This document shows, piece after piece, positions 49,320 to 53,984 of a DNA stretch of 64,000 bases. Each line of letters starts with the position of its first letter. The stretch's first letter is position 1. The notes under the pieces are model-generated. The model was not told the DNA's origin, searched no databases, and saw only the letters and a list, made by a program, of their open reading frames with translations. Position numbers and translations under genes: made by a program. Source of the stretch: Shigella phage sb2; sequence record PQ666540; one strand, 5' to 3'.

Positions 49320-49616
49320 TCAGTCAAATTTGTGTTTACAATGACGACATTTATATCCAAGATTTCTAGTCTGCCAGTTGACCAATTGAACCTGTTCAGT
49401 ACCACATTCAGGACAATTAGGAACGTTTTTAGAAGCCCTTTCGCGACGTTCAACCATAGCCATAATGGCATCCCAAGCTGGAGGTTTAAAGTCTAAATCA
49501 TCACAACCATGAATCTTTCCACGCATTTCCAGATCGTCTTCTTCACCAGCCATAATAATTTTAATTAGACTGGAATTACTTGAAGCTGCAATATCTTCTA
49601 ATAGACGCTTTTTCAT
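49320..49616 (-). CDS. zinc-ribbon hypothetical protein
   Basis: 98 aa with CPECG...CRHCKHKF. Confidence 0.5.
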
Positions 49617-50542
49617 TTCAATACCTCAATAGCATTACGTAAACCATTTGCTTTTGCATTAAGAGCTTTTAACAATTTGGTGTGTTCGGCAATCTGGGCT
49701 TCAACTTCAATTAAACGAGCATTGAGATATTCACGTTCTTCGCTCAGGTTATCAACCTTTTCTACTTTAGGCTCTTTTACAACTGTCTTATATGTATTAG
49801 GGTTCTTCAGTTTAATTAGAATGCGTGAACTGTATAACATTGAACCATTATCTTCGGTTTCGTCATACATTTCTACTACGTCCATGATTTTTAACATCAT
49901 GCGGAGTTTATAAGACAACGAACGAATAGTTTTGTTGTGCTTATTAATTTCTCTAGAGTTCATGGTGCCGAGATTACGTGAGTAATAATAAGGAACCTGG
50001 ATATTAATTAACACTGATGAACCACCTGGCTTATGTGTTACTTCATCAGCAATAACCCAGTCCTTAACATGAACTGTATTTGTACGGTCATCACCAGCGG
50101 TAAATAGTTTGCGAGCATGCTTAAAAAGCATATTCACTTGGGTATTGAATTGACAAGCAAATTTATCAGCAAATTTAGTTTCAGGAATGGTAGATAACCA
50201 ATCAGCCAAATGGGTCTTTTTAACATCGTTAACAATAGTAAATTCAACCAAATCGGTTATAGATGTCGTAGATTTAATGAAGCTCGGCTTCATAAAGTTT
50301 TTAATGTTATCGCGAGCTACAGTAGAAGATAACATACGAGAACGTTTAAACCATTCAAGCAAATTGCCTAATGAATGAGAATAGGCGTTCTGAGTATCTT
50401 TACAGATATGATTTTCCTGGCCAATATATTGAAGGAAATCACGAAGAATATTATTGATTACTGCTCTGTGTCCGATCTGATAATTACGGTGTTTAGCAAT
50501 AAGGCTGTCAAAATAATCAATATAATGTTTACGAGTTTTCAT
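49613..50542 (-). CDS. hypothetical protein with C-terminal coiled coil
   Basis: 309 aa, heptad-like C-terminus. Confidence 0.55.
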   Translation of the reverse strand: MKTRKHYIDYFDSLIAKHRNYQIGHRAVINNILRDFLQYIGQENHICKDTQNAYSHSLGNLLEWFKRSRMLSSTVARDNIKNFMKPSFIKSTTSITDLVEFTIVNDVKKTHLADWLSTIPETKFADKFACQFNTQVNMLFKHARKLFTAGDDRTNTVHVKDWVIADEVTHKPGGSSVLINIQVPYYYSRNLGTMNSREINKHNKTIRSLSYKLRMMLKIMDVVEMYDETEDNGSMLYSSRILIKLKNPNTYKTVVKEPKVEKVDNLSEEREYLNARLIEVEAQIAEHTKLLKALNAKANGLRNAIEVLK

Positions 50543-50594
50543 GTTCTTCTCACTTGGTTAATGATTTATACTCCGAGCCATCCTTGGCTTTAAA

Positions 50595-51596
50595 TTACTT
50601 AATTAACTGTAAAGCTTGTTCAAGACGATCCAGGCGATTAACAGATTCTTCCCAAATCCTTTTAGCCTGCTCATATTCTTTCTGGGCTTTATTAGAAATT
50701 TCTAGAGCTTCTTTATAAGCTTTTTCTAGTGCAATAACTTCTGGACGAATTTCTACCGGTTCAGGCGAATCGTCAAGATTATCCATTAGTTCCTCAAGGG
50801 TAGTTTCTTCTTTAGGAGTATTCACAATTTCATCACATTTTTGTTGGTAAATTTCTTTATCAGTCGGTGAGTACGCACACTTTACTTCACGGAGACTAAC
50901 TACAATTTTATATCCTTCCCAACCGCACATATTCTTAAAAGGATAAGTATGAATATTTTCTACTGTTTCCATACAAAGTAATGCAGTCTCTAACTGACGA
51001 GTTATATCGCTAGCAATTGAGAAAAATTTATTAATGTTCTTTTGATTAGCTTCTGGTGTAAAAAATTCATAATTCACAAAAATAGCTACTTTATTTTTAT
51101 CAAGTTCATATTCTTTTACGATAATCATATCAGAAGCCCAAGGATGAATTTGACGATAATCGCCATAGCATAATTTAGAAGCGGATTTTATAAGTTGCTT
51201 CTTGAAAAGTCTGAAATTACTAACCCAACGACGAGTAAAAATATTCTCAGGGTCTTCTTTATTATTAAGATGATAAGAATTAACATCACCGAACCAATTA
51301 TATCCTACTACATTTTTAGTTCGTTTAATTTCTTTCCCAAAATTACCAAGAATATCCCGATTAACCAAATATGAAAGAAGACGAGACCTTTTAAAGGTTT
51401 TCTTAATATCATCTTTATCTACGCGGCTAGAAATTTTACGAACTTCATGAATAAATTTACTCGAAGAAACAATACTTGCATCAATACTATTGAGCCATTG
51501 ATTGATAATAGAAATAACACTATTCTGACCAAACACGGGTTTAACTTTATCATCAATAACGCTATTGAATGATTTGATATATTCGTTACGAGTCAT
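50595..51596 (-). CDS. hypothetical protein with C-terminal coiled coil
   Basis: Start MTRNEYIK with RBS GAGGAG; track start lies inside promoter. Confidence 0.55.
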   Translation of the reverse strand: MTRNEYIKSFNSVIDDKVKPVFGQNSVISIINQWLNSIDASIVSSSKFIHEVRKISSRVDKDDIKKTFKRSRLLSYLVNRDILGNFGKEIKRTKNVVGYNWFGDVNSYHLNNKEDPENIFTRRWVSNFRLFKKQLIKSASKLCYGDYRQIHPWASDMIIVKEYELDKNKVAIFVNYEFFTPEANQKNINKFFSIASDITRQLETALLCMETVENIHTYPFKNMCGWEGYKIVVSLREVKCAYSPTDKEIYQQKCDEIVNTPKEETTLEELMDNLDDSPEPVEIRPEVIALEKAYKEALEISNKAQKEYEQAKRIWEESVNRLDRLEQALQLIK

Positions 51597-51624
51597 AATA
51601 ATCTCCTCAGTAGAAAGTAAGAAC

Positions 51625-52676: not shown

Positions 52677-52684
52677 GGTATTCC

Positions 52685-53575
52685 TTAAGATTTAAGTAAA
52701 TCGACGATTTTAATTAACTTTTCACGCTCAGATTTAGCTTTACTACTCAATCCAGATAGTCTGAAAATTTCATCGTCATATTGTTGAATAGAAATATTCA
52801 GCTCTTCAATCTGTTTATTAAAATAATCAATTTGTTCAGAATGTTTTTCGTTACTACGAACTGGTACAGGTTTCGTAGGCAATGTAGTTGAACTGGATTC
52901 ATCCGGGCGATAAATTAAAATACAACTTGAACCAATAGGACATTTTGCCCCAGATGAATATTCTAATGTTCCAGCTTCTTTTAAAACTTCAAAAGCTAAA
53001 CAGAGATGATGACCCATATTAACATAATCTGTAGAGTGAGCTCTGATGTAATAATCATCTCCACGAATACTAAATTTAAAGCATTTAAGGTCTTCTGTAT
53101 TATTGGTCTTAAAAATCATTTGTTTATCTAGACCTTTAGCTAATCGAGCGCCTAATGCTAATAATCGTCTTTGATTTTCCCACAAATCCGCAATCATTTG
53201 ATCGAATGATAATTTTGGCATTAGTCGACAATAAAGGTCATATCCTTTATTATAATTACGAAGGATTTCACTCGCGTTAATACGAGACAATGCTCCAATT
53301 TTATTAAGGGCTTTCATAATGCGATTAGATAAACTCATTCCAGATCCGTTTGTTCGCTGTAAATGTTTTTCTAATCCAAATCCAATATCAACTTTAAACT
53401 TATCTAAAATTTCAGCATGAACATCTCTGTCGATAACATTCAAATCCAAAGTTGGGTTAAATCTATGAAAAAATTTATCTGGCTCTCCACGACGAAATAC
53501 AGTCCATTCATTCATCATTTTTTTATTAACTAAAGATTTAATTACTGCATTGACATTATTAATTACTACTGACAT
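52685..53575 (-). CDS. hypothetical protein with C-terminal coiled coil
   Basis: Start MSVVINN with RBS GAGGAAAAT. Confidence 0.55.
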   Translation of the reverse strand: MSVVINNVNAVIKSLVNKKMMNEWTVFRRGEPDKFFHRFNPTLDLNVIDRDVHAEILDKFKVDIGFGLEKHLQRTNGSGMSLSNRIMKALNKIGALSRINASEILRNYNKGYDLYCRLMPKLSFDQMIADLWENQRRLLALGARLAKGLDKQMIFKTNNTEDLKCFKFSIRGDDYYIRAHSTDYVNMGHHLCLAFEVLKEAGTLEYSSGAKCPIGSSCILIYRPDESSSTTLPTKPVPVRSNEKHSEQIDYFNKQIEELNISIQQYDDEIFRLSGLSSKAKSEREKLIKIVDLLKS

Positions 53576-53582
53576 ATTTTCC

Positions 53583-53984
53583 TCACTCAATTTTATTAAA
53601 TATACAGAATAAGATGGAACAGACTATATAAGCACCACACACAGATTGAACTAATACCATTCCAAAGAACCAAACAATATTATCAAACAATGTCTGTTTT
53701 ACGTCGAAAGGACGTAAACTTACAGTAATATTATCACCTTTTTCTATTGAAGAATACATCTCTGGGGAAATATATTCACTAAATCTATAACCATCTTTGA
53801 GTTCATATACGGCAATAAACGATAAACTAGACCCTTTTCCTTGTGTTACTGTAATGGTATTAACTACAGTAACATCATAATCTTTATAGTGCATATAATC
53901 ATTAATTGCGTAATAACCATATGCAACTACTACACATAAACAACATATCAATAAATTCAATCTTTTAATTATCAACTGTTTCAT
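53583..53984 (-). CDS. membrane protein
   Basis: 133 aa, N- and C-terminal hydrophobic segments. Confidence 0.5.
   Translation of the reverse strand: MKQLIIKRLNLLICCLCVVVAYGYYAINDYMHYKDYDVTVVNTITVTQGKGSSLSFIAVYELKDGYRFSEYISPEMYSSIEKGDNITVSLRPFDVKQTLFDNIVWFFGMVLVQSVCGAYIVCSILFCIFNKIE

What the first reader, a model, noticed from the sequence alone, without database searches (positions are those of the whole stretch)
49613..53590. Four consecutive 300-350 aa proteins each ending in a coiled coil
Four adjacent ORFs share size and a 40-55 residue heptad-rich C-terminus (e.g. ...[19 protein letters not shown], ...RLDRLEQALQLIK, ...LNNALNALN, ...KLIKIVDLLKS) but have different N-terminal domains and no enzymatic motif I recognise. 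The pattern suggests a family with a shared oligomerisation module and variable heads.
Basis: seen in the sequence. Interest (0 to 1): 0.5.

Follow-up and report, generated by a model that had tools for sequence, protein, structure and literature searches.

The report
T4 nrdC.3–nrdC.6 paralogue array
The four genes are the T4-type phage genes nrdC.3 to nrdC.6: diverged copies of one gene, each a globular head on a flexible linker and a coiled-coil tail, and one of them (nrdC.5) is already published as a gene that lets T4 overcome the bacterial Dsr1 defence.

Summary
Four adjacent minus-strand ORFs (309, 333, 340 and 296 aa after start-codon correction) each end in a 48-60 residue helix that keeps one heptad register.

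The window is a Tequatrovirus (T4-like phage). The ORFs are orthologues of T4 nrdC.3, nrdC.4, nrdC.5 and nrdC.6.

The N-terminal parts are not different domains. Profile comparisons and leave-one-family-out HMM tests with the coil removed show one diverged head domain. That head has three shared motifs, a shared N-terminal M(K)TR..YI motif (seen in NrdC.3/.4/.5 only) and a shared C-terminal KLxxA[LI]xxLK end. Support is strong for NrdC.3/.4/.5 and weaker for NrdC.6. This is a tandem paralogue family confined to Straboviridae, not domain shuffling.

T4 nrdC.5 (95.6% identical here) is published as sufficient to restore T4 infection of cells carrying the SIR2 NADase defence Dsr1. Its mechanism is unknown, and the other three genes are uncharacterised.

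Most likely these are early, non-essential, fast-evolving counter-defence proteins that oligomerise through the coil and bind host immune proteins with the head. That step is inferred. Interest is moderate.

The parts
49613..50542 (-). nrdC.3 orthologue, 309 aa. Head is about residues 1-250 (49793-50542), followed by a short Pro/Lys linker and then the coil.
   Evidence: ORF. 60.6% identical to T4 NrdC.3 and syntenic. Full-length match to phrog_1435, E 5e-116. Paralogue of NrdC.4. There are three allele classes among 653 phage records. Divergence from T4 is concentrated in residues 91-270.
49616..49759 (-). NrdC.3 C-terminal coiled-coil segment (residues 262-309), ending ...[10 protein letters not shown].
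   Evidence: Single heptad register with 86% hydrophobic a/d positions. The heptad score exceeds all 300 shuffles. 77-100% identical to T4 in this segment although the head has diverged.
50595..51596 (-). nrdC.4 orthologue, 333 aa from ATG 51596 (the mechanical ORF runs to TTG 51647). Globular alpha/beta head 1-260, disordered linker 263-286, then the coil.
   Evidence: 91.6% identical to T4 NrdC.4. phrog_1435, E 1e-168. The homologues carry precomputed Pfam PF26897. AlphaFold2 model: mean pLDDT 83.9, pTM 0.69.
50598..50744 (-). NrdC.4 C-terminal coiled-coil segment (residues 285-333), ending ...RLEQALQLIK.
   Evidence: AF2 helix 285-332. Single heptad register with 86% hydrophobic a/d positions and an Ala/Tyr/Leu core.
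51654..52676 (-). nrdC.5 orthologue, 340 aa (Pfam DUF7235). It is the orthologue of the published T4 anti-Dsr1 gene. Head about 1-222, long low-confidence linker 223-276, then the coil.
   Evidence: PF23882 at 424 bits against a cut-off of 30. 95.6% identical to T4 NrdC.5 over 340 aa and syntenic. T4 nrdC.5 restores plating on dsr1-carrying cells (PMC9391042). The family has only 13 hits among 1.84 billion representative proteins. The AF2 model is poor overall (pLDDT 50.9), but its secondary-structure order matches NrdC.4.
51657..51836 (-). NrdC.5 C-terminal coiled-coil segment (residues 281-340), ending ...KLNNALNALN.
   Evidence: AF2 helix 281-339 with pLDDT 71-93 over residues 291-340. Single heptad register with 88% hydrophobic a/d positions. 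The heptad score exceeds all 300 shuffles.
52685..53575 (-). nrdC.6 orthologue, 296 aa from ATG 53575 (the mechanical ORF runs to TTG 53590). Head about 1-230, Pro/Ser/Thr linker, then the coil.
   Evidence: 97.3% identical to T4 NrdC.6 over 259 aa; beyond that the T4 reference is frameshifted. phrog_2257, E 3e-151. The homologues carry precomputed Pfam PF26899. The head is linked to the other three families.
52688..52849 (-). NrdC.6 C-terminal coiled-coil segment (residues 243-296), ending ...KLIKIVDLLKS. A Gly at residue 275 may kink it.
   Evidence: Single heptad register with 80% hydrophobic a/d positions. Heptad score reached by only 3 of 300 shuffles. No structure model was made for this protein.

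Best explanation
**What it is.** The four ORFs are the Tequatrovirus genes nrdC.3, nrdC.4, nrdC.5 and nrdC.6. They form a tandem array of anciently duplicated, strongly diverged paralogues found only in T4-like phages (Straboviridae).

**Shared architecture.** Each protein has three parts:
- a head of about 220-260 residues, with N-terminal helices followed by a helix-strands-helix-strands core;
- a flexible Pro/charged linker of roughly 15-55 residues (estimated from the domain boundaries used here);
- a 48-60 residue C-terminal heptad helix ending in KLxxA[LI]xxLK.

**Proposed function.** They are non-essential, fast-evolving counter-defence proteins. The source paper calls T4 nrdC.5 an early gene; the timing of the other three was not checked. 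In this model the coil makes a dimer or higher oligomer. The two or more tethered heads bind a host immune protein and keep it inactive. NrdC.5 would do this to the SIR2 NADase Dsr1. NrdC.3, NrdC.4 and NrdC.6 would do it to other defence proteins or other alleles.

**Shown here or in the literature.** Orthology to T4, paralogy of the heads, the heptad tails, elevated dN/dS, and the published genetic result that T4 nrdC.5 alone restores infection of dsr1-carrying cells.

**Inferred.** Oligomerisation through the coil, direct binding to Dsr1, and any counter-defence role of NrdC.3, NrdC.4 and NrdC.6.

**My separate estimates.**
- Orthology: about 0.99.
- Four-way paralogy: about 0.85.
- The NrdC.5 orthologue here counters Dsr1: about 0.8.
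- The other three are counter-defence factors: about 0.5.
- Direct-binding oligomer mechanism: about 0.35.
For: **Identity.**
- The region is 96.7% identical to Tequatrovirus genomes.
- Gene order matches the ime09 and T4 annotations.
- Protein identities to T4 are 60.6, 91.6, 95.6 and 97.3%.

**Paralogy.**
- Searches give the pairwise and profile links.
- The superfamily alignment shows three head motifs, a pre-coil P-V element and a common C-terminal motif.
- Leave-one-family-out head-only HMMs score NrdC.5 at 37.4 bits against a best decoy of 13.4. NrdC.6 members score 12.4-21.1 bits against a best decoy of 8.5.

**Architecture.** AF2 models and the heptad analysis.

**Function.**
- Expressing T4 nrdC.5 restores plating of a deletion mutant on MG1655 carrying dsr1 from ECOR17 (PMC9391042).
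- Direct-binding inhibition has a precedent in DSAD1, which binds DSR2 (bioRxiv 10.1101/2021.12.14.472415).

**Context.** The same gene cluster holds pin (Lon inhibitor, per the T4 annotation) and gp49.2 (window 48089-48409), a published inhibitor of the OLD defence (PMC13096335).

**Evolution.**
- Across 7 genomes, dN/dS is 0.28, 0.19, 0.17 and 0.10 for nrdC.3 to nrdC.6. Four of the five flanking genes measured give 0.01-0.07 (nrdC, nrdC.8, nrdC.10, nrdC.11); the fifth, nrdC.7, gives 0.27.
- NrdC.3 has three allele classes. Its divergence lies in the central head, while the N-terminus and the coil stay conserved.
- Copy number varies from 2 to 4 among genera, and presence is patchy among phage records.
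Against: - Nothing here tests binding, oligomerisation or activity.
- Only NrdC.5 has a phenotype, shown for T4's copy against one Dsr1 allele, and the paper does not show a direct interaction.
- All dN/dS values are below 1, so the data fit relaxed constraint as well as an arms race. The sample is 7 closely related genomes. nrdC.7, a flanking gene outside the family, has dN/dS 0.27, as high as nrdC.3, so the contrast with the neighbours is not uniform.
- The NrdC.6 link rests on weak profile scores (E 4.5e-4 in the leave-out test; hhalign 67%) and on one bridging protein. No structure model was made for NrdC.6 or NrdC.3.
- The NrdC.5 model is low confidence (pLDDT 50.9).
- The training alignment in the leave-out test was made with the held-out sequences present, which could help them slightly.
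- The T4 reference copy of nrdC.6 lacks the coil through a frameshift. Either the coil is dispensable in the laboratory or that allele is dead.
Confidence: 0.6

Rival explanations
1. One portable coiled-coil oligomerisation module has been joined by recombination to unrelated head domains (domain shuffling), so the four heads have independent origins.
For: - BLASTP finds no similarity between NrdC.5 or NrdC.6 and NrdC.4 outside the coil.
- PHROGs and Pfam place the proteins in three separate families.
- One 803-bp metagenomic contig encodes a 173-aa protein (P0231) in the nrdC.5 position, directly upstream of nrdC.4. It has an unrelated 119-aa N-terminal part joined to a near-identical NrdC.5 coil.
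Against: - Head-only profile comparisons link the families: 98% for NrdC.3-NrdC.4, 93% for NrdC.4-NrdC.5 and 67% for NrdC.6-NrdC.4 (full-length profiles; 27% head-only).
- Held-out head-only HMMs recover each family above all decoys.
- The conserved motifs are colinear from the N-terminal M(K)TR..YI to the C-terminal LK.
- The AF2 secondary-structure order of NrdC.5 matches NrdC.4.
- P0231 is a single short contig and may be an assembly chimera.
Confidence: 0.08
2. The four proteins, perhaps with NrdC.8, co-assemble through their similar C-terminal coils into one hetero-oligomeric complex. That complex has a single job, in host takeover or nucleotide/DNA metabolism, rather than four separate specificities.
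For: - All four families share a C-terminal motif beyond the generic heptad pattern.
- The genes are adjacent, co-oriented and tightly spaced.
- NrdC.8, nearby, also ends in a heptad tail.
- The cluster lies among nrd genes.
Against: - NrdC.5 expressed alone from a plasmid rescues a phage carrying large deletions (PMC9391042). I did not confirm which neighbours that phage retained.
- The members are not inherited as a set. Record counts are 653, 553, 581 and 741, and only 462 of 656 records hold at least 80% of the region.
- Other genera keep two or three members.
- The T4 reference NrdC.6 has lost its coil.
- The 'nrdC.N' names only record map position next to nrdC. There is no thioredoxin-fold match or CxxC motif.
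Confidence: 0.12
3. The head is a diverged copy of a phage tail-terminator/tail-completion fold. It works as a decoy: it occupies the sensor of a defence protein that normally recognises a virion protein, as DSR2 recognises the tail tube. This is a specific sub-version of the counter-defence model.
For: - Two Arthrobacter phage tail terminators appear in the BFVD Foldseek list at probability 0.93-0.96.
- DSR2 is activated by a tail tube protein and blocked by a phage protein that binds it.
Against: - Z stays below 8 and identity is 3-16% in the terminator-type hits.
- Foldseek against the PDB finds nothing at E < 0.01, and gpU comes only at E 0.17.
- There is no Pfam hit to tail-terminator families.
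- The trigger of Dsr1 is not known.
Confidence: 0.1
4. The C-terminal helices are not intermolecular coiled coils. They are amphipathic helices that fold back on their own head or bind a partner as single helices, so no oligomerisation module exists.
For: - Only monomer models were made, and no coiled-coil predictor or multimer prediction was available.
- The NrdC.4 core is rich in Ala/Tyr/Ser, and the tails of NrdC.3 and NrdC.6 each contain a Gly.
Against: - A single heptad register persists for 48-60 residues, with 80-88% hydrophobic a/d positions.
- In both AF2 models the helix is extended and separated from the head by a low-confidence linker rather than packed on it.
- An exposed hydrophobic stripe of that length is rarely stable as a monomer. 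This last point is general knowledge, not tested here.
Confidence: 0.1

Closest known systems
Phage T4 NrdC.5 (Pfam DUF7235, PF23882), the anti-Dsr1 counter-defence gene of Srikant et al. 2022 (eLife, PMC9391042)
   Same: The third ORF is its orthologue: 95.6% identical over all 340 residues, in the same genomic position, with a full-length DUF7235 match. The other three ORFs share its architecture and, by profile evidence, its head domain.
   Different: Only T4's own copy has been tested, and only genetically. The three paralogues are 12-27% identical at best and sit in other Pfam/PHROG families. Their targets, if any, are unknown.
T4 NrdC.3/NrdC.4 (phrog_1435, PF26897) and NrdC.6 (phrog_2257, PF26899): uncharacterised T4 'nrdC-mobD region' proteins
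   Same: These are direct orthologues of ORFs 1, 2 and 4.
   Different: No function is published for them in the library searched. The databases treat them as separate families, whereas the evidence here joins them with NrdC.5 in one superfamily.
DSAD1, the anti-DSR2 protein of SPbeta-like phages
   Same: It is a functional analogue of NrdC.5: a phage protein without enzymatic motifs that neutralises a defence-associated sirtuin NADase. For DSAD1 this works by direct binding.
   Different: DSAD1 is 120 aa, from Bacillus phages, and acts on DSR2 rather than Dsr1. No coiled-coil tail is reported in the passages I read. I did not compare sequences because I had no DSAD1 sequence. Direct binding is not shown for NrdC.5.
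Tail terminator / tail completion fold (lambda gpU, SPP1 gp17-like, DUF3168)
   Different: The match is below usual confidence. Foldseek does not support it and there is no sequence signal. NrdC proteins also carry an extra N-terminal helical bundle, a linker and a coiled coil, and nrdC.5 at least is described in the source paper as an early non-structural gene.
Other T4-type counter-defence genes in the same gene cluster (pin, Lon inhibitor; gp49.2, OLD inhibitor)
   Same: They are also small non-essential genes, on the same strand, within about 1.2-2.1 kb of nrdC.3.
   Different: The proteins are unrelated, and neither belongs to a paralogue array.

Membership tests
T4 NrdC.5 / DUF7235 (PF23882) | Full-length match to the Pfam model above its gathering score | tested here: met
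   ORF 51654-52676 scores 424.1 bits against a cut-off of 30, covering residues 1-340 and profile positions 1-307 of 307.
T4 NrdC.5 / DUF7235 (PF23882) | Orthology to T4 NrdC.5 (high identity, same position between nrdC.4 and nrdC.6) | tested here: met
   95.6% identity over 340 aa. Gene order is identical to T4 and ime09.
T4 NrdC.5 / DUF7235 (PF23882) | Ability to counteract Dsr1 | not testable with these tools
   Shown only for T4's own gene by complementation (PMC9391042).
NrdC.3/NrdC.4 family (phrog_1435) | Full-length match of both ORFs to the same profile, and mutual similarity | tested here: met
   phrog_1435 gives E 5e-116 and 1e-168. BLASTP gives 27% over 226 aa, E 7e-10. hhalign gives 98%.
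Proposed NrdC.3-6 superfamily (one head domain) | NrdC.5 head homologous to the NrdC.3/4 head without help from the coil | tested here: met
   Head-only hhalign: 93.2%, E 2.9e-7, 149 columns. Held-out head-only HMM: 37.4 bits, E 2.5e-10, against a best decoy of 13.4 bits.
Proposed NrdC.3-6 superfamily (one head domain) | NrdC.6 head homologous to the others without help from the coil | tested here: met
   Support is weaker than for NrdC.5.
- Held-out head-only HMM: window NrdC.6 scores 16.8 bits (E 4.5e-4). All five NrdC.6-family members score 12.4-21.1 bits, above the best of about 2,067 decoys (8.5 bits).
- hhalign of the NrdC.6 profile extended with PM2 gp092 and a Karamvirus protein, against NrdC.4: 67% with full-length profiles, 27% head-only.
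- PM2 gp092 bridges the families.
- No structure model was made for NrdC.6.
Coiled coil | Sustained heptad periodicity of hydrophobic residues in a Pro-free helix of at least 4-5 heptads | tested here: met
   48-60 residues in one register with 80-88% hydrophobic a/d positions. AF2 gives long helices for NrdC.4 and NrdC.5.
Coiled coil | Actual oligomerisation (dimer, trimer, or homo- versus hetero-oligomer) | not testable with these tools
   No multimer prediction or experiment was available.
Tail terminator / tail completion fold (gpU, DUF3168, gp17-like) | Significant structural match of the head to solved terminators | tested here: inconclusive
Tail terminator / tail completion fold (gpU, DUF3168, gp17-like) | Sequence-profile match to a tail-terminator family | tested here: not met
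   No such Pfam family at E <= 1 for any of the four proteins. No relevant PDB sequence relatives: none at E <= 0.1 for NrdC.5 or the NrdC.6 profile, and only designed helical-repeat proteins for the NrdC.4 profile.
Thioredoxin / glutaredoxin (the label many GenBank records give these genes) | Thioredoxin-fold profile match and a CxxC active site | tested here: not met
   No thioredoxin-family hit in Pfam or NCBIfam. None of the four sequences contains CxxC (read). The label appears to be carried over from the gene names 'nrdC.N'.
Tyrosine recombinase N-terminal SAM-like domain | Profile match above the curated cut-off | tested here: not met

The most novel reading that the evidence does not exclude
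The NrdC.3-6 proteins are a Straboviridae-specific multigene family of immune antagonists built on one scaffold with many targets. A coiled-coil stalk presents two or more rapidly diversifying heads. Those heads descend from a tail-terminator-like virion fold and act as decoys, occupying the sensor domains of defence proteins (Dsr1 and others) that recognise phage structural proteins. If so, each paralogue and each NrdC.3 allele class would neutralise a different defence system or allele. The array would then be a compact, readable record of the defences a T4-like phage meets.
Probability: 0.12. Interest if true: 0.7.

Novelty: new member of a known kind. Interest (0 to 1): 0.4.

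Why it matters
**The gap.** T4 is the best-studied large lytic phage, yet about half of its genes have no known function (my background knowledge). The nrdC-mobD block is one of those unexplained regions.

**What this adds.** One of the four genes is already a proven counter-defence factor against a sirtuin NADase. Showing that its three neighbours are its distant paralogues with the same head-linker-coil build turns three hypothetical proteins into concrete candidates for new anti-defence activities. It also suggests a simple experiment: test each gene against defence-system panels, with and without the coil.

**Mapping the contact surface.** The constant parts are the N-terminal helices, three head motifs and the coil end. 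In NrdC.3 the variable part is residues 91-270 (central head and linker). This separation is a starting point for mapping a target-binding surface.

**Annotation.** The widespread 'thioredoxin' label on these genes in GenBank records should be corrected.

**Limits.** The finding does not open a new category of biology, and it rests on inference for three of the four proteins.

Tried and rejected
**Enzyme or known-domain assignment.** Pfam, NCBIfam, PADLOC and PDB sequence searches gave nothing above cut-off. Sub-threshold hits to PHL, Phage_int_SAM_1/XerD, DUF4164, CofH and BrxC were treated as noise.

**Tyrosine-recombinase SAM-like N-terminal domain for NrdC.3.** Rejected: scores are far below cut-off and there is no structural support.

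**Structure of NrdC.5.** The alignment is too shallow (80-96% identity). The model has pLDDT 50.9, so I did not use it for fold searches.

**Fold assignment of the NrdC.4 head.**
- BFVD returned only uncharacterised Straboviridae proteins.
- Foldseek against the PDB found nothing significant.
- The afdb50 library was unavailable.

**Other family members in the 64-kb window.** None beyond the four.

**DNA-level repeats or gene conversion between the paralogues.** Only short chance matches.

**Population sample from IMG/VR.** Only 5 loci were returned, so dN/dS rests on 7 genomes.

**Promoter and terminator scan.** Promoter-like sites are not enriched over shuffles, so I drew no conclusions on transcription units.

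**Context of the odd protein P0231.** The contig is only 803 bp, and its head has no match in the phage collection.

**Literature.** No paper in the searched library names nrdC.3 or nrdC.6. The only mention of nrdC.4 is a strain polymorphism. I found no follow-up on how NrdC.5 acts.

Full report
**1. What the window is**

The 4.4-kb region is 96.7% identical to Tequatrovirus genomes; the best match is Escherichia phage UGKSEcP1. It matches 656 phage records, and 462 of them hold at least 80% of it. Flanking ORFs read directly as T4 endonuclease VII and NrdC thioredoxin.

The ime09 and T4 records name the four ORFs nrdC.3, nrdC.4, nrdC.5 and nrdC.6. Identity to the T4 proteins is 60.6%, 91.6%, 95.6% and 97.3%. 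All genes here lie on the minus strand.

**2. The observation**

The four ORFs are at 49613-50542, 50595-51647, 51654-52676 and 52685-53590. Homologues and the annotated records place the true starts of the second and fourth at ATG 51596 and ATG 53575, giving 309, 333, 340 and 296 residues.

Evidence for the coiled-coil tails:
- Each tail keeps a single heptad register for 48-60 residues. Positions a/d are 80-88% hydrophobic, against 18-29% elsewhere.
- A crude heptad score beats whole-protein shuffles for NrdC.3, NrdC.5 and NrdC.6.
- AlphaFold2 gives one long terminal helix in NrdC.4 (285-332) and NrdC.5 (281-339). In both, a low-confidence linker separates the helix from the head.
- Of 58 window ORFs of at least 120 aa, these four rank 1, 2, 4 and 5 for a C-terminal heptad score. 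NrdC.8, two genes away, ranks 3.

The oligomeric state was not testable.

**3. Are the heads different?**

No. The evidence runs from strong to weaker.

- *NrdC.3 and NrdC.4.* Both match phrog_1435 over their full length. They align at 27% identity over 226 residues, E 7e-10.
- *NrdC.5, first pass.* NrdC.5 and NrdC.6 show nothing by BLASTP outside the coil. First-pass profile comparison was only suggestive: NrdC.4 against NrdC.5 gave 48%, E 2e-4.
- *NrdC.5, extended profile.* A full HMMER scan of 1.84 billion representative proteins found 13 hits; those used here were P0226, P0229 and P0236. I added these, plus the syntenic proteins of Dhakavirus Bp7 and Mosigvirus DCP548. With the coil columns removed, NrdC.4 against NrdC.5 then gave 93.2%, E 2.9e-7 over 149 columns.
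- *NrdC.6.* Its head HMM hits Pectobacterium phage PM2 gp092 at E 1.3e-7. The same protein matches the NrdC.5 profile at 77%, E 2e-5. It is also a Foldseek hit of the NrdC.4 model, E 1.5e-7, TM 0.47-0.50. The NrdC.6 profile extended with gp092 matches NrdC.4 at 67%, E 5e-5.

A 21-sequence alignment of all families shows the shared features:
- a common N-terminal M(K)TR..YI motif in NrdC.3, NrdC.4 and NrdC.5;
- motif 1, FK+S+xLSxxxAxxxLxxF;
- motif 2, F...L...LL..A.RL..GD;
- motif 3, L..AL..M..V;
- a P-V element before the coil;
- the terminal [KR]LxxA[LIV]xxLK.

Head-only HMMs built without the tested family recover it above about 2,000 shuffles and decoys:
- NrdC.5: 37.4 bits, against a best decoy of 13.4.
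- NrdC.6 family: 12.4-21.1 bits, against 8.5.
- NrdC.4, with both NrdC.3 and NrdC.4 held out: 30 bits, against 10.9.

There is no DNA-level similarity between the copies, so the duplications are old. The array is a paralogue family. The NrdC.6 link is the weakest part of this conclusion.

**4. Structure**

The NrdC.4 model is good: mean pLDDT 83.9, pTM 0.69. It has a globular head (residues 1-260) made of six N-terminal helices followed by strands and helices. A disordered linker (263-286) and the terminal helix follow.

The NrdC.5 model is poor (pLDDT 50.9). From its long helix at 102-126 onward, though, it shows the same order of elements.

Fold searches with the NrdC.4 model gave the following:
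- Foldseek against BFVD returned 18 hits at E < 1e-3. All are uncharacterised proteins, 15 of them 308-374 residues long, and every named one is from a Straboviridae phage infecting Acinetobacter, Klebsiella, Pectobacterium, Erwinia, Serratia, Yersinia or Enterobacter.
- Foldseek against the PDB finds nothing below E 0.01.
- No PDB entry is related by sequence.

I treat the terminator resemblance as a lead, not an assignment.

**5. Function**

*Published evidence for nrdC.5.* Srikant et al. (eLife 2022, PMC9391042) isolated a T4 deletion clone that had lost the ability to plate on ECOR17. Deleting dsr1 in ECOR17 restored infection, and cloned dsr1 protected MG1655 against that clone. Expressing T4 nrdC.5 alone restored plating. 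The paper calls nrdC.5 an uncharacterised early gene and gives no mechanism.

*The target.* Dsr1 is a single SIR2-domain protein that depletes NAD+.

*The precedent.* The closest mechanistic precedent is DSAD1, a 120-aa phage protein that binds and inactivates DSR2. DSR2 itself is triggered by a tail tube protein.

*The other three genes.* I found no paper on nrdC.3 or nrdC.6. The only mention of nrdC.4 is a strain polymorphism.

*Genomic context.* The context fits counter-defence. The same gene cluster contains pin (Lon inhibitor, per the T4 annotation) and gp49.2 (window 48089-48409, 96% identical to T4). gp49.2 is a published inhibitor of the OLD defence (PMC13096335).

*Evolutionary pattern.*
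- Across seven Tequatrovirus genomes, dN/dS is 0.28, 0.19, 0.17 and 0.10 for nrdC.3 to nrdC.6. For nrdC, nrdC.8, nrdC.10 and nrdC.11 it is 0.01-0.07, but flanking nrdC.7 is also high at 0.27.
- NrdC.3 exists in three allele classes: at least 90%, 75-79% and about 60% identity.
- Its divergence from T4 sits in residues 91-270 (37-57% identity). Residues 1-60 (87-90%) and the coil (77-100%) are conserved.
- Members are gained and lost. tblastn finds 653, 553, 581 and 741 phage records for the four proteins. Other genera keep two or three members.

**6. Most likely mechanism**

The proteins are non-essential; nrdC.5 at least is described as early. The coil forms an oligomer and the linker lets the heads move. 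The heads bind a host immune protein and hold it inactive.

NrdC.5 would do this to Dsr1. The other three would have other targets.

Shown: orthology, paralogy, architecture, the published genetics of T4 nrdC.5, and faster protein evolution than most neighbouring genes.

Inferred: oligomerisation, direct binding, and any role of NrdC.3, NrdC.4 and NrdC.6.

Rivals are listed separately. They are true domain shuffling, a single hetero-oligomeric complex, a tail-terminator decoy, and a non-coiled-coil helix.

**7. Comparison and novelty**

The genes themselves are known T4 genes, and NrdC.5's phenotype is published. Two points appear not to be stated in the databases or papers I could search:
- The four belong to one superfamily. 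Pfam and PHROGs split them into three families.
- They share a head-linker-coil plan with a conserved C-terminal end.

This makes NrdC.3, NrdC.4 and NrdC.6 predicted new members of the kind defined by NrdC.5. I could not search subscription journals, so prior description elsewhere is possible.

**8. Verdict**

This is a real feature, correctly seen, and partly misread. It is ordinary in the sense that it is a known phage gene block. It has moderate interest as a testable lead for three new counter-defence proteins. Interest 0.4.

Noticed in passing
L002 (T4 NC_000866) 10067-10894, compared with window 52685-52850: The T4 reference nrdC.6 has a single-base deletion (gagctgAatatt becomes gagctg-atatt). 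This frameshifts the last ~37 codons and ends the protein at 275 aa without the coiled coil. The coil-coding DNA is still intact downstream in the old frame. The full-length 296-aa form is far commoner in the databases (a cluster of 940 members, against 9 and 19 for truncated forms). This may be a laboratory-strain mutation or a sequencing error.
   Followed up: partly
L016 (ENA contig k141_89665, 803 bp) 120-641; protein P0231: A 173-aa protein sits in the nrdC.5 position, directly upstream of an nrdC.4 start (MFLLSTEEINMTRNEYIKSF...). It joins a 119-aa N-terminal part with no match in the phage collection to a near-identical NrdC.5 coiled coil. It is either a natural head replacement or an assembly chimera.
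   Followed up: partly
Proteins P0056 and P0121: P0056 (299 aa) is a fusion of NrdC.5 residues ~146-268 to the C-terminal half of NrdC.3, joined at a short FN..VN microhomology. It is a deletion that removes nrdC.4 and parts of both neighbours. P0121 (Shigella phage Sf25, 378 aa) is NrdC.6 with an internal tandem duplication of about 82 residues. Both show that this block rearranges readily.
   Followed up: no
window 54040-54567 (-), NrdC.8, 175 aa: A fifth protein of the cluster also ends in a heptad-like helix (...ERIETYKKQRAERQNTLRKFEERLKTVLA). It ranks third of 58 window ORFs on the C-terminal heptad score. The head HMMs of the four families do not match it.
   Followed up: partly
window 48089-48409 (-), gp49.2; window 47519-47983 (-), pin: The 106-aa ORF is 96% identical to T4 gp49.2, published in 2026 as an inhibitor of the OLD defence system (PMC13096335). 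Together with pin (Lon inhibitor) and nrdC.5, this makes the interval from gene 49 to nrdC.11 look like a counter-defence-rich block.
   Followed up: partly
L009 (Aeromonas phage 25, DQ529280) 5023-6504: In the syntenic interval between nrdC.11 and gene 49, this phage has no NrdC.3-6 homologue detected by my HMMs. It carries a 493-aa gene annotated as similar to pre-B-cell enhancing factor (nicotinamide phosphoribosyltransferase). That is an NAD+ salvage enzyme at the place where T4 carries its anti-sirtuin gene. Two flanking 218- and 223-aa proteins also end in heptad-like tails.
   Followed up: no
GenBank annotations under: Many phage records label nrdC.3-nrdC.6, and also nrdC.10 and nrdC.11, as 'thioredoxin' or 'thioredoxin, phage-associated'. 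None of the four proteins has a thioredoxin-fold profile match or a CxxC motif. The label seems to be propagated from the gene names.
   Followed up: yes
window 49320-49616 (-), 98 aa (NrdC.2 position): The ORF directly downstream of nrdC.3 (in the direction of transcription) overlaps its stop codon by 4 bases. It ends in a CPEC...CRHC zinc-ribbon-like motif.
   Followed up: no
window 56094-56113: A perfect 8-bp GC-rich hairpin (AGGGAGCC-TTCG-GGCTCCCT) followed by a T-run on the minus strand lies just after nrdC.11 and before nrdC.10. It is the strongest terminator-like site in the 10 kb scanned.
   Followed up: no
window 49613-50542 (-), nrdC.3: NrdC.3 falls into three discrete allele classes among 653 phage records: at least 90% identity in 357 records, 60-80% in 258, and below 60% in 34. 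This window carries the class that differs from T4's own allele (60.6% identity), although the flanking genes are 92-97% identical to T4. That pattern suggests allelic exchange by recombination.
   Followed up: partly
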